Part shown: piece after piece, positions 55 to 11,907 of the stretch
How positions within the stretch are numbered: position 1 is the stretch's first letter
How the letters are laid out: each line of letters opens with the position of its first letter
Source: a virus
DNA: 14,759 nt
Direction: 5' to 3' (one strand)
UHGV virus genome: UHGV-0181014
Made by a program: the position numbers and the translations under genes
The notes under the pieces: generated by a model
Databases searched by the model: none
The model's input: only the letters and a program-made list of their open reading frames with translations
What the model was told of the DNA's origin: nothing

Positions 55-378
55 CCGCTTGTAAAACGCTGAGAACCGTACCATTGCTGGTGGTAGGTAC
101 TATTCATATGTATAAACAAACAGTGCTTTTTTAGCAAAATCTGCTCTATATACATCAATGACTTAGGCGATGGTTTCTCCCCATTCTATTTAAGTGGAAT
201 AACTCAAAGAATCTGTTAGTTTTTCAAGGCGTGATAAAAGTAACAGTATGAGTTTGCAGATAAAAAATTTAGGTGATTTTCGATCAATGTCATAGCTTGG
301 CACTTGGCCGAGTTTAAACTGCATGGGATAACCACACTTTAGCTGCTGTGTGATGGAGTCTCATAAAAGGTGATAATA

Positions 379-1479
379 ATGTGCAATGTTGACGATACAG
401 CTCCCGATACTCAACCACCTCTCGAACTAAGCCAGGATGTGCAGGCGCTGATCAACAACGGTTTGGACTTTCTGGATAAAGCCCGTGAAGAATTGGAAGC
501 ATCAAAGCCTAAGTTCTCCGTCGTCAGCTTCTGGACGGCAGTAGAGATTTTACTAAAAGTACCTCTTGCGCATGAACACTGGTCGTTGGTCTGCAGTCCA
601 AAGAAACCAATAAAAAAGCAGGACTACTTAGCTGGTGATTTTCAGTCTGTGACCTATGAAGAAACTCGTAGTAGGCTTAAGGATGTACTTGAAAAACCAC
701 TAGATAAGGAAACGGATAGTGCTTTTGATAAGGTCAGAAAGCACCGCAACCGCGTGGTTCATTTCTACCATCCAACTTTTACTGCAGATGAACAGCGCCA
801 GATACTCAAAGAACAAGCGGATGCTTGGTTTGCTCTGAACAGGTTATTAAGGGAAGAATGGAAAGTCATTTTTGGAGTCAAACATAATTGGACGCTTGCT
901 TTTGGTGAGACTCGATTAATTAGGGGAAATGAATTTTATGCCCAAGTGCGGCTTAATCAGGTTAAACCTGAATTAGAATCTCTTGCAGAAAAGGGCATGC
1001 TAATTGGTACTTGTAATGAGTGCCATCAGCGTTCGTTAGTAACGGACACTAAAATAATTGGTAATGAAAAACGTGAACTTGAAGTTACGCGATGTAAGGT
1101 TTGCACTAGTGTTTTACGGCAAATTAATCTAGTTTGTCCCGACTGTGGGGAAGTTCAATTGCTTCAGGAGGGGGATGATGTTTTTGAATGTAGACGCTGC
1201 AACTACGCTCGGAGTAGATATGATTTGCTAGATGAGGAAATATTCCATAGTGTGGATGAACAGCTTCTCTCTGCATTTCCTGCTGGATGTACCAACTGCA
1301 TGAACCCTGAAAGTGTATGCAAATTTGGCGAAGGCTATCTCTGTACTCGGTGTTTATCCTATTACACTGAAATTCAGCAATGTAATAGTTGCAACCACTT
1401 GAGCGATAGTGTTCCTGAATTTAGTCATATTCGAGGATGTGAATTTTGTGATGGCGACCAGCGTTATTTTGATGACTGA
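379..1479 (+). CDS. Hypothetical protein: N-terminal HEPN-like domain (R-x4-H motif) fused to four C-terminal CxxC...CxxC zinc-ribbon modules; candidate defence/toxin cargo gene
   Basis: Long ORF 370-1479; preferred ATG at 379 preceded by AAAGG (366-370). Motif RKHRNRVVH (DNA ~736-762) fits the Rx4-6H HEPN signature. C-terminal ~150 aa carry eight CxxC pairs (CNEC/CKVC, CPDC/CRRC, CTNC/CTRC, CNSC/CEFC). GC roughly 40 percent, lower than the prophage backbone. Function is inference only. Confidence 0.6.
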   Translation: MCNVDDTAPDTQPPLELSQDVQALINNGLDFLDKAREELEASKPKFSVVSFWTAVEILLKVPLAHEHWSLVCSPKKPIKKQDYLAGDFQSVTYEETRSRLKDVLEKPLDKETDSAFDKVRKHRNRVVHFYHPTFTADEQRQILKEQADAWFALNRLLREEWKVIFGVKHNWTLAFGETRLIRGNEFYAQVRLNQVKPELESLAEKGMLIGTCNECHQRSLVTDTKIIGNEKRELEVTRCKVCTSVLRQINLVCPDCGEVQLLQEGDDVFECRRCNYARSRYDLLDEEIFHSVDEQLLSAFPAGCTNCMNPESVCKFGEGYLCTRCLSYYTEIQQCNSCNHLSDSVPEFSHIRGCEFCDGDQRYFDD

Positions 1480-1639: not shown

Positions 1640-2818
1640 CTAACTAGCTTTAATTTCTCCATGAGGAACTACGACCCAATCGATATGATTTTGGGTATAG
1701 ATCTTTGTTGATTTCGCATCACTATGTGCCATTCGTCCTTGCGGATCGATACCCTGCTGATCGAAAAGATGCGCTGCCAGCGCTCTAATTTCATGAAAGG
1801 TTGGTCTTTCGTCCATCGATAGATGGTCGCATAAACCTAGCTTGTCACGCGTAGCTGAAAATGACCGACTCAAATAGTCCGGTGCAACTTGACTAGGGTG
1901 TGAAACCTCTTTGCTGCGTTTAATCTGCCGTTCAGGGATCCTGTGAACGACAAACGGACTGGCCACATTATCTCGGCTATCGTCTATTATCCGTTTCAAC
2001 TCTTCCCCAATCGGGATTGCAACGTGAGATGCCTCTTTTTTTTGCACTTTCTGCCTGTGGATGTAGAGAGTCCCATAAATACCGTTTTCTGGTTGCGCTA
2101 ACCATACGCACCCGCAGATACCGTCTTTTGGCTCTCTTATGGAGTAACGGATCCGTGAGACCTCCAATCGTGCGTGTGTTGTCTGCAATGCCAAATCCAT
2201 AGCGGTTCGTAACCATGGTTCGGCTGCGCGCCTGATGGCTTTAAAGTTATCAAGTGAAAGGCGCTGGCGCTTCTTCTCTTCTGTCCTACGCATTTTTTTA
2301 CGGGTTGCCGGGTTATCGAACATTAGTGATTCATCGACCGCATAGGAAAATAATTTTTTAAGAAAGCTGACTTTCCTGTTTTGTACGTTTGCTGATGCTT
2401 CGGCATGGTAGTGGTTTATATAGGCGTTCACATGCTCCAGCTCAATATCGCAAGCTGGTATGTTGATGAAGAATTCTTTTACCCTCAGAGCATCGTTGTT
2501 CCAATCGTCGAGTGTATTCTGTGAAGGGCGCTCATTCTCAATCGCCCGCTCCATAATATGATCTACGTGTTCAGCAAATGGTTTTGCTTCCCCAGTTACA
2601 CCGCCAGATTCACGGACAAGTATTTCTACTGAAGGTACATTTTCAGGTCTCATTCTTAGGTTGTATTCACGGGCTATAGCGATCGCTACAGCCCTGTCTT
2701 TACCAATATTCTTTTTTTTCCCAGTTATGAGCGTAAATTTATAAACGCCGCGATCTTTATCGAATATTAGATATTCGGGTAGATGGCGGTATTCTCTTTT
2801 TCTTGGCCTGGCTGCCAT
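1640..2818 (-). CDS. int: Lambda-family tyrosine integrase
   Basis: 392-aa ORF. N-terminus MAARPRKREYRHLPEYLIF...GKDRAVAIAIAREYN parallels lambda Int arm-binding N-terminus (MGRRRSHERRDLPPNLYIR...GRDRRIAITEA). C-terminus PTFHEIRALAAHLF...HSDAKSTKIYTQ parallels lambda Int PPTFHELRSLSARLY...HKSDTMASQY with the catalytic tyrosine. Lies next to the tRNA-derived att core and is preceded by xis. Confidence 0.9.
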   Translation of the reverse strand: MAARPRKREYRHLPEYLIFDKDRGVYKFTLITGKKKNIGKDRAVAIAIAREYNLRMRPENVPSVEILVRESGGVTGEAKPFAEHVDHIMERAIENERPSQNTLDDWNNDALRVKEFFINIPACDIELEHVNAYINHYHAEASANVQNRKVSFLKKLFSYAVDESLMFDNPATRKKMRRTEEKKRQRLSLDNFKAIRRAAEPWLRTAMDLALQTTHARLEVSRIRYSIREPKDGICGCVWLAQPENGIYGTLYIHRQKVQKKEASHVAIPIGEELKRIIDDSRDNVASPFVVHRIPERQIKRSKEVSHPSQVAPDYLSRSFSATRDKLGLCDHLSMDERPTFHEIRALAAHLFDQQGIDPQGRMAHSDAKSTKIYTQNHIDWVVVPHGEIKAS

Positions 2819-3119: not shown

Positions 3120-4358
3120 TTACTTTTTCATCACCTTTTCAGCAACACCAGCAATTGCCTCAAGTCCATCAAACATTGCTGGTATATTATTTTCATTGTT
3201 TTGTATTGGACTAAAAATAAGAGCATCAAAAGAGTCTAAAACTTTCTCAATAGCAATGTTATTTTTTCTTCTATATTCAACATACCCATCAATGAAAGCA
3301 CATAAGCTGAGCCTTAGATCAATCTGCATAAGTTGAGTTCTTAAAGCCTTCGCTTCTAAATATGAAAGTCTGAAAAAATAAATAATTGCCATCTCAATAG
3401 TAATAAATGGGAATAGAATGAAGATCGCTGAATAATCTTTAGGATATAAATCAGGGAAAGAAAAATGGATTATTACAGCAATCACAGGAGCAATGAATAC
3501 AGTCCCAAATAAATTTTTATAATTCATTTCAGTTGTAGAAAGCTCTTTCTCTTTTTTTTCTTTTATTATGTTAAAACCAGAGCTTAACCCAACAAAATTA
3601 TACTCTGATTTTAAATTTCTCACACGCTCCTCTAGTGCCTTAATTTCATCCCTTGATTCATCCACGTATTTTAAATTAGCATCTGCTTCTAGTTTTCCAT
3701 CTACAATAGCTTTTTTAATGTCATTATAATTATCAGATATTAATGATATGGATGCTTTAGTGTCTTTGTTAATTTTATCAATAGCCAAATCTAAGTTGCT
3801 AGAAATTTCATCGAGAAACTTCCGTTTGTTTTCGTCGAGGTCTGATATAAAGTTTCTAGCATCAGTTAGTTTGTTACTGTTTAGTAACCACTTCATAAGT
3901 GAAATAGGTAGTTTGTCTCGAATCCATGAAAATTGGTATTTACCTTCATTATCCTTGAAAGTGTTTTCTAATAATGTCAATTTGCTGTCTGTGATAAAGT
4001 TAGGCGTGATAATGGAACGAGTGCCTGTCCAATAATAGTACTCGTACAATACTCTTAACAAGGTTGACAAAAAATCAATCTTGTCTTTCTTGTAATCGTC
4101 AACTTGAAATTCCATGTGCAACAATATATTGTCTTGATTAAAACCTGTATTCTCATCTAAATGTTGTGGGTTGTTATTTATTATTGATATAAAAGTCGAC
4201 CATGCTGAGTCCAATGTAGTATAGAATAAAGATATGCTATTATCTTTCTTTTTGGCGGATTTCTTGGACATTTCTTCAAACCTAATAAGATCTCTACTAA
4301 TTATAGTATTTGTTTCCTTTATTGAATTAAGTATTTTATTATCGCTATATAGTCCCAT
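3120..4358 (-). CDS. Hypothetical AT-rich membrane-anchored protein (412 aa, two predicted C-terminal TM helices); candidate abortive-infection or superinfection-exclusion cargo gene
   Basis: Uninterrupted 412-codon ORF in a segment of roughly 30 percent GC, against ~50 percent or more in flanking phage genes. Hydrophobic stretches FGTVFIAPVIAVIIHFSF and AIFILFPFITIEMAIIYFF near the C-terminus; coiled-coil-like segment ESRDEIKALEERVRNLKSEY. AAAAAGG RBS before the ATG at 4358. No recognisable catalytic motif. Confidence 0.7.
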   Translation of the reverse strand: MGLYSDNKILNSIKETNTIISRDLIRFEEMSKKSAKKKDNSISLFYTTLDSAWSTFISIINNNPQHLDENTGFNQDNILLHMEFQVDDYKKDKIDFLSTLLRVLYEYYYWTGTRSIITPNFITDSKLTLLENTFKDNEGKYQFSWIRDKLPISLMKWLLNSNKLTDARNFISDLDENKRKFLDEISSNLDLAIDKINKDTKASISLISDNYNDIKKAIVDGKLEADANLKYVDESRDEIKALEERVRNLKSEYNFVGLSSGFNIIKEKKEKELSTTEMNYKNLFGTVFIAPVIAVIIHFSFPDLYPKDYSAIFILFPFITIEMAIIYFFRLSYLEAKALRTQLMQIDLRLSLCAFIDGYVEYRRKNNIAIEKVLDSFDALIFSPIQNNENNIPAMFDGLEAIAGVAEKVMKK

Positions 4359-4475: not shown

Positions 4476-5303
4476 TTATGGTTTAAATATTCCGATGAAA
4501 GTGTCCACTGATTCACCCTCGAACTTGCTGATCAGCAAATTGCGGAATTCGTTGGCGATCTCTTCTTCCTGGGCTTCAAGTTGGACGATGCGCAGAACAA
4601 AGCAGGGTTCATCGCTGGTCAGCAGGCTGTTACGCAAACTAAAGCGGCGTTCGCCCATACCTTCATACGGCACACATTTGAACTCGAACGCCACAGGCAT
4701 TACGTCTTTGCTGCTTGCTTCAACGCTTTGCATCAGGGATTTTTTACCAGCGAAATCACCAGTTTCATGGTCCTGCTGGGTTGCTTGCTGGATAGTGATA
4801 CGACGTACAGCCTGAGCTGCCTGGGAAATCTGCATCGTATTGCCATCAGCATCAAACGCCAGCAGGTAATCGCTCCAGTCTTCCAGCCATTCAGCGATTT
4901 GCTTTTGCTTCAGACGTTGACCGTCGATCTGCAGTAGCGCACGGAACGGGGCGGTTTTCTTTAGGGTGATTGAAGCAACGTTATCGGCGTGACCGGGATT
5001 ATCCAGGGTGCCGATGTTGAACACTGAACGAGCGGTCATGTTGTCAGCATCAATGAAGCAACGGGCTGGATCGCTGGCGCTGGCGTAACCTTTAGAATAA
5101 CGTGCGAAGTCGTCAATACTGGTTGTGGTCATTGCGCCACGGAAGCGGAAACGCTCCAGAGAAAAGCGCTCAAGGCTTTCAACGCCAGTACCTTCTGGCA
5201 ATAATGCGGTCGGGCAAGCCAGGTCCTGAATATCATTCAGGTGATAACCGGAAAGAACCAGGTCTTTGACCTGCTTGAAGGTACCGCTGTCTAACTGAGA
5301 CAT
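4476..5303 (-). CDS. Conserved prophage early-left protein, possibly YfdQ-like (DUF2303 family)
   Basis: 275-aa ORF with TAAGGAA RBS. Size and N-terminus (MSQLD...) match my recollection of E. coli CPS-53 YfdQ (274 aa); family assignment is from memory, not a search. Confidence 0.7.
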   Translation of the reverse strand: MSQLDSGTFKQVKDLVLSGYHLNDIQDLACPTALLPEGTGVESLERFSLERFRFRGAMTTTSIDDFARYSKGYASASDPARCFIDADNMTARSVFNIGTLDNPGHADNVASITLKKTAPFRALLQIDGQRLKQKQIAEWLEDWSDYLLAFDADGNTMQISQAAQAVRRITIQQATQQDHETGDFAGKKSLMQSVEASSKDVMPVAFEFKCVPYEGMGERRFSLRNSLLTSDEPCFVLRIVQLEAQEEEIANEFRNLLISKFEGESVDTFIGIFKP

Positions 5304-6321: not shown

Positions 6322-6948
6322 TTAAAGCTCGTACTGAACGCCTTTGACAACGCCGATGATCAGGCAATTACCGTTAATTGAAATGTTTGGATAGCGTGGA
6401 TTTAAGGGAACTAAGAACTTTTGAGGCCCGTCGATGACAAGTTTTTTTACAGTAGCCTCGTTTGTCCCATCAAGCCTGGCTACGACTATCTTTCCATGAA
6501 GTGGCTCTGCATCTGGATCTACTATGACTGTTGCCCCTTCAGGGATTGTCGGGAGGCCATTAGGGTTTGTCATCGAATCACCTTTAACCTCCAATGCAAA
6601 GGAGCTATCCCCTATGCGGAGTGATGTCTCTATCCACTTATCTACTTCGCTGAAAACTTCTGCTGCTTTACATTCTGTAAACTGTCCAGCCTGAACCCAG
6701 GATATCACCGGAATCCTTCGCATCTTGGTTATCAGATTGCCTTCAAATTCAGTGCCATAAAGTATGTAATCAATTGATGTGTTGAAATACTTTGCAAGTT
6801 TCGCAAGTGACTCGCCTCCTGGCACATTAACGTCTTTTTCCCAATACCCAACCGCCACATCACTAACACCGCAGAACTTACCCAGTTCTTTCTGCGAGGT
6901 TTTGGTTATGCGCCTGAGAGCTTTGATGCGCTGACCGACAGTTTCCAT
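6322..6948 (-). CDS. CI-like prophage repressor (HTH_XRE N-terminal domain plus S24 LexA-like autopeptidase domain)
   Basis: 208-aa ORF. N-terminal HTH (QKELGKFCGVSDVAVGYWEKDVNVP), a probable Ala-Gly cleavage site (VQAGQF), and the S24 Ser/Lys dyad context (GDSM ... VKKL). Divergent from a Cro-like gene with operator palindromes between them. Confidence 0.85.
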   Translation of the reverse strand: METVGQRIKALRRITKTSQKELGKFCGVSDVAVGYWEKDVNVPGGESLAKLAKYFNTSIDYILYGTEFEGNLITKMRRIPVISWVQAGQFTECKAAEVFSEVDKWIETSLRIGDSSFALEVKGDSMTNPNGLPTIPEGATVIVDPDAEPLHGKIVVARLDGTNEATVKKLVIDGPQKFLVPLNPRYPNISINGNCLIIGVVKGVQYEL

Positions 6949-6974: not shown

Positions 6975-7046
6975 CTAAGCAATCTTAGTTTTTATTGACC
7001 AAAGTTAGATTGGTTATTAATATCTAATCAAACTTAGCTAAGGAGG
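6975..7046. promoter_or_regulatory. oR-like operator cluster with rightward promoter (pR) for the Cro-like gene
   Basis: Inverted repeats built on CTAAG/CTTAG half-sites: CTAAGcaatCTTAG (6975-6988), CTAATcaaaCTTAG (7024-7037), CTTAGCTAAG (7033-7042). Candidate pR: -35 TTGACC (6995-7000), 17-nt spacer, -10 TAATAT (7018-7023). AGGAGG RBS at 7041-7046 before the ATG at 7051. Confidence 0.55.
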
Positions 7047-7050
7047 CGTT

Positions 7051-7278
7051 ATGACAACCGATGATATTGAAAACTACTTCGGCAGTACTGAGAAGGTTGC
7101 CGAATTTTTTGGAATCACAAGCGAGGCTGTTTACCAGTGGCGTAATAGAACTGGTCGCCTTATCCCAAAAGGGCGTGCAGCTGAAGCAGCATATCGAACC
7201 GGGGGGAAATTGGTTTTTCATCCCGACCTTTACGAAAAGCGTAGCGATGCTTCAGTAAAACTCAAACCACAGGAATAA
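7051..7278 (+). CDS. Cro-like small HTH regulator (Cro/YdaS-like)
   Basis: 75-aa ORF divergent from the repressor, strong AGGAGG RBS. Motif AEFFGITSEAVYQWRNRTGRLIP fits the Cro/YdaS-type HTH pattern. Confidence 0.75.
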   Translation: MTTDDIENYFGSTEKVAEFFGITSEAVYQWRNRTGRLIPKGRAAEAAYRTGGKLVFHPDLYEKRSDASVKLKPQE

Positions 7279-7288
7279 GGGGGGAGCT

Positions 7289-7840
7289 GTGGGTAACGAA
7301 CCTATTTGGAAAGTCGAACGTCAGCCAGCCTGGCTGGTGGCGGCGATAAAAAAAACGATCACCGATCTTCCTGGTGGTTATGCCGAGGCGGCGGAATGGT
7401 TGGGCGTGACAGAGAACGCATTGTTCAACCGCCTTCGTGTTGACGGCGACCAAATCTTCCCGCTGGGCTGGGCAATGGTTTTACAACGTGCTGGTGGTTC
7501 AACTCATATCGCTGATGCCGTTGCGCGCCATTCTCAGGGCGTATTTGTACCGCTGGCAGATGTTGATGATCTGGATAACGCCGATATCAACCAGCGCCTG
7601 ATGGAATCAATCGAATGGATAGGCCGTCATTCTAATTTTGTACGTAAAGCCACGGCTGATGGGGTGATTGACGCAGAGGAGCGCGCTCAGATTGAGGAAA
7701 ACAGCTATCAGGTGATCGCGAAGTTCCAGGAGCACGTAGCACTTCTTTATCGAGTTTTTTGTGTCGCTGAAAAGAGTGACGCCCGCGAGTGTGCAGCTCC
7801 GGGCGCCTTGGCGAACAACTCTTCGAGTATGGAGAAATAA
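7289..7840 (+). CDS. CII-like phage regulatory protein (183 aa)
   Basis: GTG-initiated ORF directly after the Cro-like gene, the canonical cII position. Sequence such as AAEWLGVTENALFNRLR and size are consistent with the phage CII/CP76-type regulator family as I recall it. Function by position plus weak motif recall. Confidence 0.55.
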   Translation: MGNEPIWKVERQPAWLVAAIKKTITDLPGGYAEAAEWLGVTENALFNRLRVDGDQIFPLGWAMVLQRAGGSTHIADAVARHSQGVFVPLADVDDLDNADINQRLMESIEWIGRHSNFVRKATADGVIDAEERAQIEENSYQVIAKFQEHVALLYRVFCVAEKSDARECAAPGALANNSSSMEK

Positions 7841-8012
7841 TCCGCATGAGCAGTTTAACGGCTTTTAACCGTCTACCGCAACTCAGGATGATCCCGGTTT
7901 CGGGTACTCCGTTGTTTCGGTATGAACGCAGATTATCAAACCGCTGGGTTCCGTGTAACCACAGTAGGGCGGTTTCAATTGTGGGGGTCTATAACCGGAG
8001 GGCAAAACGCCT

Positions 8013-8192
8013 GTGCGCGAACTTAACCGAAGGTTCAAAGACCACCGCGGAGTGTCTGTCCGTGTTATCCGCTGGGAGCCAGAAACACAGCGCGTTATCT
8101 ACCTGCGTGATGGCTACCCGCACGAATGCTTCAGCCCACTTGAGCATTTCAGGCAAAAGTTCAGGGAGATAACGGACGATCATGAGCACTAA
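8013..8192 (+). CDS. Putative small protein (59 aa, GTG start) overlapping the start of the replication gene
   Basis: Frame opens after TAA at 7992-7994. GTG at 8013 preceded by GGAGG (7996-8000, 12-nt spacing). The translation VRELNRRFKDHRGVSVRVIRWEPETQRVIYLRDGYPHECFSPLEHFRQKFREITDDHEH looks protein-like, whereas the overlapping 127-aa frame (7789-8172) is Ser/Ala/Thr/Arg-rich in this interval. It ends 10 nt into the next gene. Confidence 0.3.
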   Translation: MRELNRRFKDHRGVSVRVIRWEPETQRVIYLRDGYPHECFSPLEHFRQKFREITDDHEH

Positions 8193-9039
8193 ATTAACCG
8201 GCTACGTATGGGATGGTTGCGCGGCGTCGGGCATGAAGTTGTCTAGTGTCGCGATCATGGCGCGCCTTGCTGATTTCAGCAGCGATGAGGGGGTGTGCTG
8301 GCCGTCTATTGAAACTATCGCTCGCCAGCTTGGCGCAGGGACGAGCACTATCAGAACGGCAATCGCTAAGCTTGAAAAAGATGGCTGGCTCACGCGTACA
8401 CAGCGCCGTAATGGTAACCGTAATGCGTCGAACGTGTACCGCCTGAATGTGGCGAAACTTCAGGCTGCCGCATTTTCTCAACTGTCAGATTCTGACGCGT
8501 CAAAACCTGACGCATCAAATTTTGACACCTCAAAAACTGACCCGTCGAAATCTGGCAAAAACGGCGGTTTTGACCCGTCAGAATCTGGCGGGGATCCGTC
8601 AGTAAAATCAAAACAAGATCCACAAGTAACTTCAAAACCCTCTTGTCCGGTTGCGGCGCAACCAGACCCTGAAGTCGTGATTACTGACCAGGCAATTTTG
8701 GTTCTGACCCATTTGAACCAGATAAGCGGATCCCGGTATCAGAAATCAAAAACATCCCTGGAGAACATCCGTGCCCGACTGCGTGAGGGATACAGCGTTG
8801 CAGACCTGCAACTTGTTATCGACCTGAAGCATGAACACTGGCACGAGAACGACGAGCAGTACCAGTACATGCGCCCGGAAACGCTGTTCGGCCCGAAGAA
8901 ATTCGAGAGCTATCTGCAAAGCGCTACCCGCTGGGAGCAGAAGGGACGGCCTAAACGCGCTGACTGGGGAGCGAAAAAGCGCGATGTGATGGCTTTTGGT
9001 CCGGTTGAAACAACGATTCCAGAGGGGTTCAGAGGATGA
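8182..9039 (+). CDS. Replication initiator (O-like): N-terminal winged-helix/HTH domain, acidic Ser/Asp linker, conserved phage C-terminal domain
   Basis: 285-aa ORF. N-terminal LSSVAIMARLADFSSDEGVCWPSIETIARQLGAGTSTIRTAIAKLEKDGWL is a typical HTH replication-protein fold signature. The C-terminal ILVLTHLNQISGSRYQ...LVIDLKHEHWHENDEQYQYMRPETLFGPKKFESYL resembles the conserved phage C-terminal domain of replication proteins. Contains tandem iterons; the true start may be 8182 or the internal ATG at 8233. Confidence 0.75.
   Translation: MSTKLTGYVWDGCAASGMKLSSVAIMARLADFSSDEGVCWPSIETIARQLGAGTSTIRTAIAKLEKDGWLTRTQRRNGNRNASNVYRLNVAKLQAAAFSQLSDSDASKPDASNFDTSKTDPSKSGKNGGFDPSESGGDPSVKSKQDPQVTSKPSCPVAAQPDPEVVITDQAILVLTHLNQISGSRYQKSKTSLENIRARLREGYSVADLQLVIDLKHEHWHENDEQYQYMRPETLFGPKKFESYLQSATRWEQKGRPKRADWGAKKRDVMAFGPVETTIPEGFRG
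8478..8640. repeat. Origin-like iteron array inside the replication gene, followed by an A-rich tract
   Basis: Tandem 15-bp units: TGACGCGTCAAAACC (8493-8507), TGACGCATCAAATTT (8508-8522), TGACACCTCAAAAAC (8523-8537), TGACCCGTCGAAATC (8538-8552), TGACCCGTCAGAATC (8571-8585), plus degenerate copies at 8478-8492 and 8586-8600. TGACGCGTCA is itself palindromic. The array is followed by an A-rich stretch (8601-8640), analogous to ori-lambda within gene O. Confidence 0.6.
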
Positions 9040-9917
9040 CGTTAAACAAATATTGCCAGGCGCTGGCGGCACTGCGCAGCAAGCCAGCCCACGAACTGAA
9101 AGAGGTTGGCGATCAGTGGCGGACACCGGATCTGCTTTTTTGGGGTATCAACGCGCTATTTGGTCCATTAGTTCTGGACTTGTTTGCTGACGACGACAAC
9201 GCGAAGTGCCCGGCATGGTACACCGCCGAAGATAACGCGCTGACACAGAACTGGTCTGAACGTCTGGATGAACTGGGCGGCGCGGCTTTTGCCAATCCTC
9301 CATATAGCCGCTCCCAGTATCACGACAAGCAGGCGATCACGGGTATGACACACATCATGAATCACACCATGGACATGCGTGAAAGAGGTGGTCGCTATAT
9401 TTACCTGGTGAAGTCTGCCACAAGTGAAACATGGTGGCCGGAAGATGCCGATCACATCATGTTTATTCGTGGTCGTATTGGGTTCGATCTGCCTGTGTGG
9501 TTTGTACCTGCTGACGAAAAACAGAAACCCACCAGCGCGTTTTTTGCCGGTGCCATAGCTGTATTCGATAAGTCGTGGCGGGGTGAGCAGTTCAGCTATA
9601 TCAACCGCACAGAACTGGAGGAAAAAGGGCGGGCATTTATGGCTTTGGCTCAATTCGCCGTTGGTAAAGAGCAAACAATTGCAATGCAGGCAGCCAGGGA
9701 ACCAGCAGCAACACCGGAAACTGAGTCACGAATCTGGCCTCTCGAGGTTGGTCTGGTGTTTAACCAGGTGGAAGGCGTTGATGTATTGAGCGAGGCCCAG
9801 CAGAACAAACTGAAAGCCAACATCAATCAACTCTGGCTGGAACGAACGGCCACCAGCGAAATTATCACAATTGCGCGTGGTCTTGTTGGCAGCATGCAGG
9901 GGGCAACCCATGCGTGA
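9036..9917 (+). CDS. Phage-type DNA N6-adenine methyltransferase (Dam-like, orphan)
   Basis: 293-aa ORF with the catalytic NPPY motif (FANPPYS) and the N-terminal QWRTPDLLF...LVLDLFADDDNAKCPAWYT signature characteristic of phage N6-adenine methyltransferases. ATGA start/stop overlap with the replication gene. Confidence 0.85.
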   Translation: MTLNKYCQALAALRSKPAHELKEVGDQWRTPDLLFWGINALFGPLVLDLFADDDNAKCPAWYTAEDNALTQNWSERLDELGGAAFANPPYSRSQYHDKQAITGMTHIMNHTMDMRERGGRYIYLVKSATSETWWPEDADHIMFIRGRIGFDLPVWFVPADEKQKPTSAFFAGAIAVFDKSWRGEQFSYINRTELEEKGRAFMALAQFAVGKEQTIAMQAAREPAATPETESRIWPLEVGLVFNQVEGVDVLSEAQQNKLKANINQLWLERTATSEIITIARGLVGSMQGATHA

Positions 9918-11907
9918 GATTATCGTTGATAACTTTGCTGGTGGCGGTGGTGCATCAACGGGTATTGAACTGGCGATCGGACGCAGCGTGGATATTGCGA
10001 TCAACCACGACGAAAACGCCATTGCGATGCACAAGACGAACCACCCTGACACACTGCATTACTGTGAATCCGTATTTGACGTGGATCCGGTAGCCGCCAC
10101 CGGCGGCAATCCTGTTGGCCTGGCATGGTTTAGCCCGGACTGCCGACACTTCTCAAAGGCCAAAGGCGCAAAGCCTGTCAAAAAAGAGATACGCGGTCTG
10201 GCCTGGATTGTTCTGCGTTGGGCACTGGCTAAGCGACCGCGCGTGATGATGCTGGAGAACGTGGAAGAGTTCAAAACGTGGGGACCGTTAATTGACATCC
10301 CGCCTAAACCTGATTTGCCGGAAGCCCTTATGGCGGATTTTATTGGCCCGGTTTACCCTGGAAATAGTCGCCCAGACCCTGCCCGCACTGGAGAAACATT
10401 CAATGCATTTGTCGGCATGCTGTCCACTGGTATTCCTGCTGACCACCCGGCACTGTCAGAGGTTTGTGAGTTTCTGTCTATTGAAAGAGGTAGCGAGCAG
10501 GCGCAACAGCTGGTGGATGGGCTTGGATATGATGTTGATTATCGCGAACTGCGCGCGTGTGATTACGGAGCACCGACGATCCGCAAACGTTTCTTCATGG
10601 TTATGCGCTGCGATGGTTTCCCTATTCAGTGGCCTGCTGTTACCCATGGGGATCCTAAGTCTCTGGAGGTGCAGAGCGGCAGGCTGATGCCATGGCGTAC
10701 CGCTGCGGAATGTATCGACTGGAATGTTCCGGCCCTGTCCATCTTCGACCGCAAAAAACCATTGGCTGAAAATACGCTCAAACGCATCGCTCGTGGTATC
10801 CAGCGGTTTGTGATCGAGAGCGCGTCGCCGTTCATCGTTAAGTGCAACCACACGACGACCAAAGGGAAATACGACTGTTTCCGTGGTCAGGCGCTGGGCG
10901 AGCCTTTGCAGACCATTACGAAAACCCATGGCTACGCGATTGCCGTCCCACACCTGACAAAGTTCCGTACTGGCGCAACCGGGCAGCCCGTTACCGAACC
11001 CGTCCCGACGGTAACCGCTGGCACATCAAAACGTCCAGGTGGGAACGGGCATGCACTCGGGATTGTTGAGGCTGCACTGACGCCATTCCTGGCGGGTAAC
11101 GGTGGTAGTGAATACCAGGCGAAACCGCGCCCGCTGGATAAACCTGCTCATACCATTCTGAAGCAATCCCGCGCCTGTCTTGTTGCGCCAGTGATAGCCC
11201 GCCAGTTTGGGGCCAGCGTCGGCCACCGGGCAGACGAACCGAGCGCAACCATCACCGCTGGTGGTGGCGGTAAATCTCAACTGGTAACGCCTACGCTGAT
11301 CCAGATGGGTTATGGCGAACGACCTGGACAAGAACCGCGTGTGCTGCGGCTGGATAACCCGCTGGGGACCGTTACTGCAGGTGGAAATAAATTCGCGACG
11401 GTGACCGCGTTCCTGGCTAAACACTACGGCGGTAACTATACGGGACCGGGTGTCAGTATGGATGAACCCGCGCACTCAGTGACCACTGTCGACCATCATG
11501 CAGTAGTTGCCTCTCATCTGGTGAAACTGCGTGGAACATGCCGCGACGGGCAACGCCTTGATGTGCCAATGCCAACAATCACTGCTGGTGGCCAACACGT
11601 GGGTGAGGTACGCACATTTCTCGAGACGTATTGCGGGGAAAGTGACGATGAATGGCTGGTAACGATCGATGGGGTTAAATACCAGATCGTTGATATCGGA
11701 ATGCGCATGTTGCAGCCGCATGAACTCTACAAAGCGCAGGGCTTCCCGGATGGTTACGTTATTGATCAGGACTACCGTGGAAATCGCTATGCAAAAGATA
11801 AGCAGGTAGCCCGCTGCGGTAATGCGGTACCACCACCATTCGCCAGGGCGCTGGTGGAGGCAAATCTTCCGGAACTGTGTGCAGTGCAACAGCAGGAGGT
11901 GGCATGA
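9910..11907 (+). CDS. DNA cytosine-5 methyltransferase (large, 665 aa) with an expanded, internally repeated variable region
   Basis: Motif I FAGGGG (DNFAGGGGAS), catalytic Cys context SPDCRHFS, motif VI LENV, motif VIII IRKRFFMV, motif X GNAVPPP near the C-terminus. ATG at 9910 preceded by CAGGGGG and overlapping the Dam-like stop by 8 nt. The ~300-aa region between motifs VIII and X contains about seven repeats of a P-x-T-[IV]-T-A-G-G-like module. Confidence 0.85.
   Translation: MREIIVDNFAGGGGASTGIELAIGRSVDIAINHDENAIAMHKTNHPDTLHYCESVFDVDPVAATGGNPVGLAWFSPDCRHFSKAKGAKPVKKEIRGLAWIVLRWALAKRPRVMMLENVEEFKTWGPLIDIPPKPDLPEALMADFIGPVYPGNSRPDPARTGETFNAFVGMLSTGIPADHPALSEVCEFLSIERGSEQAQQLVDGLGYDVDYRELRACDYGAPTIRKRFFMVMRCDGFPIQWPAVTHGDPKSLEVQSGRLMPWRTAAECIDWNVPALSIFDRKKPLAENTLKRIARGIQRFVIESASPFIVKCNHTTTKGKYDCFRGQALGEPLQTITKTHGYAIAVPHLTKFRTGATGQPVTEPVPTVTAGTSKRPGGNGHALGIVEAALTPFLAGNGGSEYQAKPRPLDKPAHTILKQSRACLVAPVIARQFGASVGHRADEPSATITAGGGGKSQLVTPTLIQMGYGERPGQEPRVLRLDNPLGTVTAGGNKFATVTAFLAKHYGGNYTGPGVSMDEPAHSVTTVDHHAVVASHLVKLRGTCRDGQRLDVPMPTITAGGQHVGEVRTFLETYCGESDDEWLVTIDGVKYQIVDIGMRMLQPHELYKAQGFPDGYVIDQDYRGNRYAKDKQVARCGNAVPPPFARALVEANLPELCAVQQQEVA

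What the first reader, a model, noticed from the sequence alone, without database searches (positions are those of the whole stretch)
8478..8640. Iteron array embedded in the replication initiator coding sequence, read as a low-complexity Ser/Asp linker
Five to seven 15-bp direct repeats (consensus roughly TGAC-N-C-R-TCA-R-AA-NN, several of them partial palindromes), followed by an A-rich tract, lie in the middle of the O-like gene. They are translated as the repetitive acidic linker SDSDASKPDASNFDTSKTDPSKS.... This is the same dual-use architecture as ori-lambda inside gene O. No P/DnaC-like helicase loader gene follows, so the initiator may recruit host factors directly.
Basis: partly seen in the sequence, partly recalled or inferred. 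Interest (0 to 1): 0.4.

Follow-up and report, generated by a model that had tools for sequence, protein, structure and literature searches.

The report
Replication origin inside phage initiator gene
A run of short repeated DNA motifs in the middle of a prophage's replication-initiator gene is conserved as DNA rather than as protein, so it is most likely the phage's replication origin, built on the plan of the origin inside gene O of phage lambda; this is an ordinary kind of element, but undescribed for this widespread phage group.

Summary
Positions 8484-8589 hold five tandem dyad units, GTCA-N5-TGAC, spaced 15 bp apart, plus a sixth unit 33 bp further on. An A-rich tract with two GATC sites follows at 8593-8640, then a small palindrome at 8645-8667. 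All of this lies in the linker of a 285-aa phage initiator (HTH_36 winged-helix N-domain and Phg_2220_C C-domain).

The repeat is not a by-product of a Ser/Asp peptide repeat. In 77 distinct homologues, synonymous diversity falls from 0.27 (N-domain) and 0.32 (C-domain) to 0.046 across codons 101-160, while amino-acid diversity there is higher than in the N-domain. Third codon bases stay fixed while the encoded residue changes.

Relatives with other N-domains carry different dyad repeats at the same place, with periods of 21-24 bp that cannot be peptide repeats. The N-domain and the array are inherited as one module. No helicase or loader gene is in the window or in the complete related phage phiNP.

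Two limits apply. The protein is not a lambda O homologue, and binding and origin firing are inferred, not shown. It is a new member of a known kind, of modest interest.

The parts
6995..7023 (+). pR-like sigma-70 promoter candidate, between the cI-like repressor gene (6322-6948, minus strand) and cro (7051-7278). It is the likely source of rightward transcription through the initiator gene. Context only.
   Evidence: Consensus scan, 9 of 12 matches; Pfam for the neighbouring genes. It is a consensus match only.
8182..9039 (+). Replication initiator gene, 285 aa: N-terminal winged-helix domain, disordered Ser/Asp/Lys linker, C-terminal Phg_2220_C domain.
   Evidence: ORF and translation. Pfam HTH_36 6.5e-12 and Phg_2220_C 1.3e-23. 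PHROGs 11896 'primosomal protein' 1.6e-80, 428 'replication initiation protein' 1.5e-70 and 391 'replication initiation O-like' 1.2e-49.
8182..8481 (+). Coding region of the N-terminal winged-helix DNA-binding domain (aa 1-100), the presumed iteron reader.
   Evidence: Pfam HTH_36 at aa 23-70, with weaker GntR, MarR, DnaD_N and RP-C matches. It evolves as an ordinary coding sequence: synonymous diversity 0.27, amino-acid diversity 0.046.
8484..8556 (.). Five tandem 13-bp dyad units (consensus GTCA-N5-TGAC, A-rich centre) with a 15-bp period, at 8484-8496, 8499-8511, 8514-8526, 8529-8541 and 8544-8556. These are the presumed iterons.
   Evidence: Ser is always TCA, and the T before GAC is invariant while the encoded residue varies. 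Copy number is 4, 5, 6 or 8 in relatives, always in 15-bp steps.
8557..8576 (.). Spacer holding an A5-GGCGG-T4 inverted element and a TTTTGAC half-site.
   Evidence: Sequence. GGT TTT GAC CCG is invariant or nearly so in 77 homologues.
8577..8589 (.). Sixth dyad unit, GTCAGAATCTGGC. With its flank (8566-8587) it is an inverted copy of 8486-8507 (22 nt, 95% complementary).
   Evidence: Inverted repeat I2. Essentially invariant in 77 homologues; YeP1 and phiP27 carry close variants (GCCAGAATCTGG and TTCAGAATCTGG). The motif GTCAGA-N0-5-TCTGGC is expected 0.01 times per window.
8593..8640 (.). A-rich, low-GC tract made of two 22-nt imperfect repeats that each start with GATC (8593-8614 and 8617-8638, 24 bp apart). 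Candidate DNA-unwinding element and Dam/SeqA target.
   Evidence: Direct repeat D4. GC 0.325 at 8600-8639. GAT CCG is found in 76 of 77 and GAT CCA in at most 72 of 77 homologues. An equivalent GATC-containing repeat pair occurs in phiP27.
8645..8667 (.). Small palindrome, GTCCGGTTGCG / CGCAACCAGAC, at the right edge of the constrained zone.
   Evidence: Inverted repeat I17, 11-nt arms, 91% complementary. Largely conserved in relatives. Synonymous variation returns to normal from codon 161, at 8662.
8482..8661 (.). Full zone of nucleotide-level constraint (codons 101-160). This is the proposed origin as a whole.
   Evidence: Synonymous codon diversity is 0.046 (median 0; 75% of columns have none) against 0.271 and 0.322 in the flanks; Mann-Whitney p = 1.5e-16 and 3.8e-18. 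Third-position identity to diverged relatives is 0.78-0.85 here and 0.44-0.57 in the N-domain.
8701..8919 (+). Coding region of the Phg_2220_C domain (aa 174-246), the presumed partner-recruiting domain of the initiator.
   Evidence: Pfam. PHROG 1701 'DnaD-like helicase loader' 6e-8 on aa 132-284. The same domain is joined to other N-domains and other repeat arrays in other phages.
9036..9917 (+). Dam-type N6-adenine methyltransferase gene, directly after the initiator gene in the place where lambda has P. Context: there is no helicase loader here.
   Evidence: Pfam Dam 5.5e-45. The same gene order is found in phiNP, in Klebsiella phage ST147-VIM1phi7.2 and, with one small ORF between, in Salmonella phage 118970_sal3.

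Best explanation
Positions 8482-8661 are the replication origin of this lambdoid prophage, lying inside the gene for its own initiator.

Proposed mechanism:
1. Early rightward transcription makes the initiator.
2. Dimers of its N-terminal winged-helix domain bind the 13-bp dyads GTCA-N5-TGAC. There are five in tandem at 15-bp spacing and a sixth in inverted context 33 bp further on. Together they form a lambda 'O-some'-like nucleoprotein complex on intrinsically A-tract-rich DNA.
3. The strain opens the adjacent A-rich tract at 8593-8640. Its two conserved GATC sites may put firing under Dam/SeqA control.
4. The C-terminal Phg_2220_C domain brings in the host DnaB helicase machinery, because the phage encodes no P- or DnaC-like loader.

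The same bases are translated as the flexible Ser/Asp/Lys linker between the two protein domains. Because the repeat period is 15 bp (five codons), units can be gained or lost without breaking the reading frame.

Shown here: the repeats, their dyad symmetry, nucleotide-level selection on them, their linkage to the N-domain type, and the absence of a loader gene. Inferred: binding, unwinding, helicase recruitment and the role of GATC.
For: 1. Nucleotide-level constraint.
- In 77 distinct homologous genes, synonymous diversity is 0.046 in codons 101-160, against 0.271 in the N-domain and 0.322 in the C-domain (p about 1e-16). Amino-acid diversity in codons 101-160 is three times that of the N-domain.
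- At codons 109, 114 and 119 the residue varies (S/P/C/H, F/S/Y, T/F/S/A/N) while the third base T, which completes TGAC, never changes. Ser is TCA throughout, and 8566-8604 is virtually invariant.
- Pairwise, third-position identity to diverged relatives is 0.78-0.85 in the element and 0.44-0.57 in the N-domain.

2. The host gene is a phage replication initiator.

3. The same position holds arrays in relatives, and the array sequence follows the N-domain type.
- YeP1 (N-domain 75% identical) keeps the TGAC/GTCA 15-bp array.
- phiP27 L17 (61%) has a 15-bp array with TGAA/TTCA half-sites.
- Min27 O, RothC and ST64B (35-43%) have unrelated dyad repeats spaced 21-24 bp.
- Three phages with the same C-domain but other N-domains have arrays spaced 23 bp or multiples of it, a period that cannot be a peptide repeat.

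4. Mosaic joints. Gene nucleotides 1-440 (N-domain + array + A-rich tract) are shared with SfIV, SfII and prophages in 1850 of 5426 E. coli genomes. Nucleotides 453-858 are shared with Salmonella phage 118970_sal3.

5. The layout matches ori-lambda as annotated in NC_001416: dyad repeats in mid-gene (O codons 117-145 of 299; here codons 101-137 of 285), then an A-rich tract, then a palindrome (PMC7466680).

6. The phage has no loader. None is in the window, and phiNP, a complete 44.9-kb relative, has only the rep gene annotated for replication.
Against: - There is no experimental evidence for binding or for origin activity in this family, and I found none in the literature searched.
- The 15-bp period is short compared with the 20-24 bp of lambda and of the sister arrays. 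It places neighbouring dimers on nearly opposite faces of the helix.
- The most invariant block (8566-8612) stays nearly unchanged even where the N-domain has drifted to 61% identity. That block may serve something other than N-domain recognition.
- The array also folds into a strong hairpin in silico (z = -6.2).
- The A-rich tract is only moderately AT-rich (GC 0.33).
- The 'DnaD-like' nature of the C-domain rests on one PHROG match. Sequence and fold searches of the PDB gave nothing.
Confidence: 0.78

Rival explanations
1. The dyads are binding sites for the initiator's N-domain or for another phage DNA-binding protein, but they serve regulation rather than origin firing. They might act as an autoregulatory roadblock inside the gene, or as a copy-control, incompatibility or handcuffing site. 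The true origin would then lie elsewhere.
For: Public records name identical proteins 'GntR family transcriptional regulator'. The first and last sites are in inverted orientation (I2), as in the operator-type inverted iterons of plasmids (my own knowledge). A bound array inside the gene would necessarily obstruct its own transcription.
Against: Family matches are to replication initiators, not regulators. An A-rich tract and a palindrome adjoin the array, as in ori-lambda. The same arrangement recurs in many initiator genes, including ones followed by P-, DnaC- or helicase-type genes. No other repeat cluster of comparable strength exists in the window. Autoregulation and origin function are not mutually exclusive.
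Confidence: 0.1
2. The constrained element is a nucleic-acid secondary structure. It could be a long mRNA hairpin controlling translation, decay or attenuation within the initiator gene, or a single-stranded DNA hairpin or cruciform, rather than a set of protein-binding sites.
For: 8482-8591 folds into an extended hairpin: -67.8 kcal/mol, z = -6.2 on the plus strand and z = -5.1 on the minus strand. The 22-nt inverted repeat I2 also includes non-palindromic spacers.
Against: Any tandem array of dyad units folds this way. The footprinted lambda iteron array gives z = -7.25 in the same test (footprinting in PMC7466680). There is no Rfam match. Where arm positions vary there is no compensation: 8497 is A in 68 of 77 homologues opposite an invariant C at 8576, and 8490 T-to-A changes are unmatched at 8583. 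Copy number changes by 1 to 3 units on one side only. Half-site changes in phiP27 are concerted across units rather than pairwise.
Confidence: 0.06
3. This is a purely protein-level feature: a low-complexity D-x-S-K-x pentapeptide linker produced by recent tandem duplication, with no function for the DNA sequence itself.
For: The period is exactly five codons and the array is in frame. The region is predicted to be disordered, though only by a weak single-sequence model. Copy number varies as expected from slippage.
Against: Amino acids vary while synonymous sites are frozen, which is the reverse of protein-level selection. Sister arrays at the same position have periods of 21-24 bp, mostly not multiples of three, which rules out a peptide repeat for them. 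The constraint continues through the non-repetitive A-rich tract and the palindrome.
Confidence: 0.03

Closest known systems
ori-lambda inside gene O of phage lambda (and the Stx phages 933W and P27 as studied in PMC7466680)
   Same: The origin lies in the middle of the initiator gene, between the DNA-binding N-domain and the partner-binding C-domain. It has an array of dyad-symmetric repeats with A-rich centres (lambda: TCCCTCAAAACGAGGGA), then an A-rich tract, then a palindrome. The origin DNA is translated as an acidic, Ser-rich linker. The number of repeats differs between relatives (4 in lambda, 6 in the Stx phages) (PMC7466680).
   Different: The initiator is not homologous to O: no Pfam PF04492 match and a best BLASTP E-value of 0.76. 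The repeat period is 15 bp and in frame, against 20-24 bp. The units are 13 bp, against 18-19 bp. A sixth unit is displaced and inverted. Conserved GATC sites sit in the A-rich tract. No P gene follows. Function is proven for lambda and only inferred here.
Initiators of Shigella phages SfIV and SfII, the E. coli K-12 CPS-53 pseudogene yfdO, Yersinia phage YeP1 and phiP27 L17 (same N-domain family)
   Same: They share a homologous N-domain (61-89% identity) and the same type of 15-bp dyad array at the same position. The GGTTTTGACCCGTCAGAATCTGG and GATCCGTCAGTAAAATCAA blocks are shared, with a few substitutions in YeP1 and phiP27.
   Different: The C-terminal halves and the neighbouring genes differ. 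SfIV and YfdO have another C-terminus followed by a PerC-like gene. phiP27 L17 is followed by DnaC-like and helicase genes. K-12 yfdO has lost about 77 N-terminal codons but keeps the array. None of these records, nor the SfIV genome paper (PMC3851460), describes an origin.
Other phage initiators with a Phg_2220_C C-domain or an HTH_36-like N-domain (Klebsiella ST147-VIM1phi7.2, Providencia PSTCR8lys, Salmonella 118970_sal3, Min27 O, RothC, ST64B sb42, Aeromonas phage 51)
   Same: They have the same gene architecture, with a mid-gene array of 2-5 dyad repeats followed by a short-period A-rich repeat. Several have the same downstream order of Dam methylase, RusA and DUF968.
   Different: The repeat sequences are unrelated. 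The periods are 21-24 bp, or 45 bp in Aeromonas phage 51, and mostly out of frame. Some are followed by P-like or DnaC/IstB-like loader genes.
Iteron origins of theta plasmids (pSC101, R6K, RK2, P1 oriR) and oriL of Bacillus phage SPP1 inside gene 38. This comparison rests on my own knowledge and was not tested here.
   Same: These origins have tandem initiator-binding repeats next to an AT-rich unwinding region. GATC sites occur in the unwinding region of P1 oriR and oriC. Inverted copies of iterons occur. In SPP1 the origin also lies within the initiator gene.
   Different: Plasmid iterons lie outside the rep gene, are usually 17-22 bp on a period of about 22 bp, and are read by WH1-WH2 Rep proteins. 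No Rep_3-type Pfam match was found here.

Membership tests
Lambda-type origin embedded in the initiator gene (architecture class) | Array of at least 3-4 direct repeats with internal dyad symmetry, inside the initiator ORF, between the DNA-binding and C-terminal domains | tested here: met
   Five tandem units plus one displaced unit at 8484-8589, in codons 101-137 of 285, between HTH_36 (aa 23-70) and Phg_2220_C (aa 174-246).
Lambda-type origin embedded in the initiator gene (architecture class) | AT-rich tract directly beside the repeats | tested here: met
   GC is 0.325 at 8600-8639, the minimum of the gene. It is less extreme than the A-rich tract of lambda.
Lambda-type origin embedded in the initiator gene (architecture class) | Selection on the DNA sequence itself, beyond what coding requires | tested here: met
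   Synonymous diversity is 0.046, against 0.27 and 0.32 in the flanks (p about 1e-16). Third bases are invariant under varying residues.
Lambda-type origin embedded in the initiator gene (architecture class) | Repeat sequence specific to the N-domain type and inherited with it | tested here: met
   Mosaic joint at gene nucleotides 440-453. The arrays differ between N-domain types and drift with N-domain divergence.
Lambda-type origin embedded in the initiator gene (architecture class) | The initiator binds the repeats, and the segment supports initiator-dependent replication | not testable with these tools
   This needs EMSA or footprinting and a plasmid replication assay. No published data were found.
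Lambda O protein family (Pfam PF04492, Phage_rep_O) | Sequence match of the N-domain to the Phage_rep_O profile | tested here: not met
   PF04492 is absent from the Pfam hits at E <= 0.01, whereas lambda O scores 5.7e-36. The best BLASTP E-value against lambda O is 0.76.
Phage initiators with HTH_36 N-domain and Phg_2220_C C-domain (PHROGs 11896, 428, 391) | Both domains present, above the curated cut-offs | tested here: met
   HTH_36 scores 45.5 bits (cut-off 25) and Phg_2220_C 83.2 bits (cut-off 27). PHROG E-values range from 1e-49 to 1e-80.
Initiator plus helicase-loader replication module (lambda O-P, DnaC/IstB type) | A loader or helicase gene adjacent to the initiator gene | tested here: not met
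   The downstream genes are Dam methyltransferase, C5 methyltransferase, RusA, antirepressor, DUF968 and Q. None is found upstream either. None is annotated in the complete phiNP genome. Relatives that do have one: phiP27, RothC and Vibrio vB_VpP_1.
DnaD-like domain (for the C-terminal domain) | Sequence or fold similarity to DnaD/DnaB_2 domains | tested here: inconclusive
   PHROG 1701 'DnaD-like helicase loader' matches at 6e-8. There is no Pfam DnaB_2 hit and no PDB sequence hit. Foldseek on a single-sequence model (pLDDT 74.7) found nothing at E <= 0.001.
Plasmid iteron/Rep systems (Rep_3, WH1-WH2 initiators) | A Rep_3-type initiator, with iterons of 17-22 bp on a period of about 22 bp outside the rep gene | tested here: not met
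   There is no Rep_3 match. The period is 15 bp and the array lies inside the gene.

The most novel reading that the evidence does not exclude
The nearly invariant 45-bp block 8566-8610 may not be read by the phage initiator at all. The block comprises the inverted sixth dyad GTCAGAATCTGGC and the first GATC-headed A-rich repeat. It could instead be a landing site for a host factor that lets this loader-less ('initiator-solo') origin capture DnaB without a phage P or DnaC protein.

Three observations leave this open. The block is conserved even where the N-domain is only 61% identical. Its core motif, GTCAGA-N-TCTGGC, recurs in the right arm of ori-lambda. The in-frame 15-bp period would let iteron number be tuned without breaking the gene.
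Probability: 0.1. Interest if true: 0.6.

Novelty: new member of a known kind. Interest (0 to 1): 0.3.

Why it matters
It assigns a probable origin, with base-level boundaries, to a very common group of enterobacterial prophages. The N-domain-plus-array module matches sequence in 1850 of 5426 complete E. coli genomes. The group includes the Shigella serotype-converting phages SfII and SfIV and the K-12 cryptic prophage CPS-53.

In public records the initiator is named only 'conserved phage C-terminal domain-containing protein' or 'GntR family transcriptional regulator'.

It also gives a clean natural example of one stretch of DNA under two constraints at once, protein linker and binding-site array, in which the DNA constraint dominates.

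Finally, it defines a loader-less lambdoid replicon in which helicase recruitment could be studied. It does not change the general picture of how lambdoid origins are built.

Tried and rejected
- Overlapping gene. Other frames across codons 95-160 contain stops in all 77 homologues, except antisense frame -3, which is open in only 57 of 77. I rejected this reading.
- Known RNA family. Rfam gave no hit in the window.
- RNA-fold z-scores. They are strongly negative on both strands, but the proven lambda iteron array scores the same, so the test does not discriminate.
- Structure. Single-sequence AlphaFold2 of the whole protein was poor (mean pLDDT 54.6; N-domain mostly below 50). The C-domain alone reached pLDDT 74.7. 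Foldseek against the PDB gave nothing at E <= 0.001 in either case. PDB sequence and profile searches gave only marginal MarR-type hits. Deeper alignments could not be submitted, because the 120 homologues listed by the protein search (the best of 2825) were all at least 97% identical.
- Positive control for the synonymous-site test on lambda O. All 80 IMG/VR relatives were 99-100% identical, so there was no variation to measure.
- DnaA boxes. There is none with one mismatch or fewer in 8000-9100.
- Internal promoter or terminator in the array. None was found.
- Literature. I found no description of an origin for SfIV/SfII/SfV-type, CPS-53 or phiP27-type initiators. The SfV genome paper is not held, and the 2006 review of phage replication modules (Weigel and Seitz) did not come up in the search. 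From memory, that review describes loader-less 'initiator-solo' modules and repeats inside O-type genes, so prior mention cannot be excluded.
Full report
**Context.** The window is the early region of a lambdoid prophage. Its genes, in order, are:
- integrase (1640-2818, minus strand)
- a DUF2303/YfdQ-like gene (4476-5303, minus strand)
- an S24 cI-type repressor (6322-6948, minus strand)
- cro (7051-7278)
- a cII/CP76-like gene (7289-7840)
- a DUF4222 gene (8013-8192)
- the gene under study (8182-9039)
- a Dam-type methyltransferase (9036-9917)
- a C5 methyltransferase (9871-11907)
- RusA, an antirepressor, DUF968 and a Q-like antiterminator

An identical protein is on record from a Citrobacter sp. 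metagenome-assembled genome.

Tandem Repeats Finder reports 8484-8554 with period 15 and 4.7 copies. The repeat finder places six copies in register, spaced 15, 15, 15, 15 and 33 bp. Read as 13-bp dyads the units are:
- GTCAGATTCTGAC (8484)
- GTCAAAACCTGAC (8499)
- ATCAAATTTTGAC (8514)
- CTCAAAAACTGAC (8529)
- GTCGAAATCTGGC (8544)
- after a 20-bp spacer, GTCAGAATCTGGC (8577)

The core TGACNCRTCA occurs four times in the window, always here, against 0.27 expected. The lag-15 self-similarity is the strongest of any lag from 6 to 40 anywhere in the window, 41/60 against a mean of 15.4 and sd of 3.5. The array is followed by the GC minimum of the gene (0.325 at 8600-8639). That tract is built from two 22-nt repeats, each starting with GATC (8593 and 8617). 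An 11-bp-arm palindrome follows at 8645-8667. The array is in frame and reads SDSDASKPDASNFDTSKTDPSKS.

**The host gene is a phage replication initiator, but not a lambda O homologue.**
- Pfam finds HTH_36 (aa 23-70), with weaker GntR, MarR, DnaD_N and RP-C matches, and Phg_2220_C (aa 174-246).
- PHROGs places it in 'primosomal protein', 'replication initiation protein' and 'replication initiation O-like' families, with E-values from 1e-49 to 1e-80.
- It does not match Phage_rep_O, which lambda O matches at 5.7e-36, and BLASTP against lambda O is insignificant.

So 'O-like' describes the architecture, not ancestry.

**Is the repeat a DNA feature or a peptide feature?** This is the key question, because a 15-bp period is five codons. 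I collected 80 homologous loci from viral contigs, plus SfIV, phiNP and an E. coli prophage. This gave 77 distinct genes, which I aligned by codon.

Third-position diversity is 0.23-0.33 in most of the N-domain. It falls to between 0.008 and 0.21 across codons 101-160, and returns to 0.31 or more from codon 161. Among sequences that share the majority residue:

| Region | Synonymous codon diversity | Columns with no synonymous variation |
|---|---|---|
| N-domain | 0.271 | 7% |
| Codons 101-160 | 0.046 (median 0) | 75% |
| C-domain | 0.322 | 7% |

Mann-Whitney p values for the middle region against the two flanks are 1.5e-16 and 3.8e-18. Amino-acid diversity runs the other way: 0.146 in the element and 0.046 in the N-domain.

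The detail is telling. At codons 109, 114 and 119 the residue is S/P/C/H, F/S/Y and T/F/S/A/N respectively, yet the third base, the T of TGAC, never changes. Serine is TCA at nearly every unit. Positions 8566-8604 are essentially invariant. In pairwise comparisons with diverged relatives, third-position identity is 0.78-0.85 in the element and 0.44-0.57 in the N-domain. This is selection on the nucleotide sequence. It extends from 8482 to about 8661, through the A-rich tract and into the palindrome.

**Comparative evidence that the array goes with the DNA-binding domain.**
- Megablast shows gene nucleotides 1-440 (N-domain, array and A-rich tract) shared at about 83% with SfIV, SfII and prophages in 1850 of 5426 complete E. 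coli genomes. Nucleotides 453-858 are shared at about 92% with Salmonella phage 118970_sal3, which has a different N-terminal half. The recombination joint therefore falls at the right edge of the proposed origin.
- Yersinia phage YeP1 (N-domain 75% identical) keeps the same array. phiP27 L17 (61%) has a 15-bp array whose half-sites have shifted to TGAA/TTCA in several units.
- More distant N-domains carry unrelated dyad repeats at the same place, spaced 21-24 bp: Min27 O, Klebsiella RothC and ST64B sb42, at 35-43% identity.
- Phages that share the C-domain but have other N-domains have arrays with a 23-bp period. These are Klebsiella ST147-VIM1phi7.2, Providencia PSTCR8lys and Salmonella 118970_sal3. 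A 23-bp period changes frame at every unit, so in those genes a peptide-repeat explanation is impossible.
- Lambda, run through the same tool, gives its four annotated iterons spaced 20, 24 and 23 bp in O codons 117-145, followed by an A-rich tract and a palindrome (architecture as described in PMC7466680).

**Copy number.** The tandem part is 4, 5, 6 or 8 units long in different relatives, always in 15-bp steps. An in-frame period allows this without frameshifting the initiator.

**Helicase loader.** No helicase, DnaC/IstB-like or P-like gene was found in the window by Pfam or PHROGs. The complete 44.9-kb genome of Citrobacter phage phiNP has a full-length homologue and the same gene order, and rep is its only annotated replication gene. 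Relatives with other C-terminal halves do have such partners:
- phiP27 L17 is followed by DnaC-like and helicase genes.
- RothC is followed by a P gene.
- Vibrio phage vB_VpP_1 is followed by an IstB-like ATPase.

How the helicase is recruited remains an inference. The only pointer is a PHROG 'DnaD-like helicase loader' match of the C-terminal half (6e-8), which PDB sequence searches and fold searches on weak single-sequence models did not corroborate.

**Rival readings.**
- An overlapping gene is unlikely. Only one alternative frame is ever open, and it is interrupted in 20 of 77 homologues.
- An RNA or DNA hairpin is possible in principle (z = -6.2). But the proven lambda iteron array behaves identically (z = -7.25). 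Variable arm positions show no compensation. Unit number changes on one side only. There is no Rfam match.
- A purely regulatory binding array cannot be excluded without experiments. It is also compatible with an origin that autoregulates as well.

**Most likely mechanism.**
1. The N-terminal winged-helix domain binds as dimers to the GTCA-N5-TGAC dyads.
2. The complex distorts the adjacent A-rich, GATC-bearing tract, which opens.
3. The C-domain recruits the host helicase machinery.

None of these steps has been tested; the observations they rest on are set out above.

**Novelty.** An origin inside the initiator gene is the textbook lambda arrangement. This is a new member of that kind, in a different and very common initiator family. 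Its unusual features are the short in-frame period, an inverted sixth site, conserved GATC sites and the lack of a loader. I found no description of it in the held literature. The SfIV genome paper names only a 'replication module' (PMC3851460). Earlier reviews that I could not read may mention repeats in such genes.

Noticed in passing
window 8577-8589; L090 563-578 (lambda 39162-39177): The rare motif GTCAGA-N0-5-TCTGGC is expected 0.01 times per window. It occurs once in the window, in the invariant sixth dyad, and once in the 1.8-kb lambda locus, in the palindrome on the right arm of ori-lambda (TTCGTCAGAGAATTCTGGCGAATCC against CCGTCAGAATCTGGCGGGGATCC). Both are translated as S-E-(N)-S-G. 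I noticed this post hoc, so it may be chance, a shared remnant or a shared host-factor site.
   Followed up: partly
L004 4002-4709 (E. coli K-12, CPS-53 prophage, yfdO pseudogene): K-12 keeps the complete dyad array, the GATC A-rich block and the palindrome. It lacks about 77 N-terminal codons of the initiator, so the laboratory strain carries an orphan copy of this presumed origin.
   Followed up: partly
window 8182-9039: Identical and near-identical proteins are named 'GntR family transcriptional regulator' or 'conserved phage C-terminal domain-containing protein' in public records. Some phage records name homologues 'putative transcriptional activator' or 'transcriptional regulator'. The replication role is mostly unannotated.
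   Followed up: yes
L092 2501-5291 (phiP27 L17-L19): phiP27 L17 is annotated 'hypothetical protein; unknown'. It has the same N-domain family and a 15-bp dyad array with TGAA/TTCA half-sites, and is followed by DnaC-like and helicase genes. The same origin-reading module is thus combined with different helicase-recruitment solutions.
   Followed up: partly
L086 2438-2473; L087 2428-2471; L003 3957-3994; L094 2308-2348; L095 2311-2351: In the sister initiator genes the iteron-like array is followed by three copies of a 12-bp A-rich repeat (ACAGAGAATACA type or GAACCAGTCACT type). The repeat is conserved across phages whose iterons differ. It is possibly the equivalent of the unwinding element.
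   Followed up: no
window 9036-11907: Two DNA methyltransferase genes follow the initiator directly and overlap each other: a Dam-type N6-adenine gene and a 678-aa ORF with a C5-cytosine methylase domain. Their position beside an origin with conserved GATC sites may or may not be meaningful.
   Followed up: no
window 4476-5303 (minus strand): This is a DUF2303/YfdQ homologue in the early-left region. In K-12 the yfdQRST cluster of CPS-53 inhibits oriC initiation, and YfdR binds DnaA (PMC4776307). No YfdR homologue was seen in this window.
   Followed up: no
window 370-1479 (plus strand) and 3120-4358 (minus strand): These are two large ORFs of unknown function (369 aa, PHROG 37794; 412 aa, PHROG 9373), with no Pfam domain above threshold. 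The first lies outside the integrase gene at the prophage edge.
   Followed up: no
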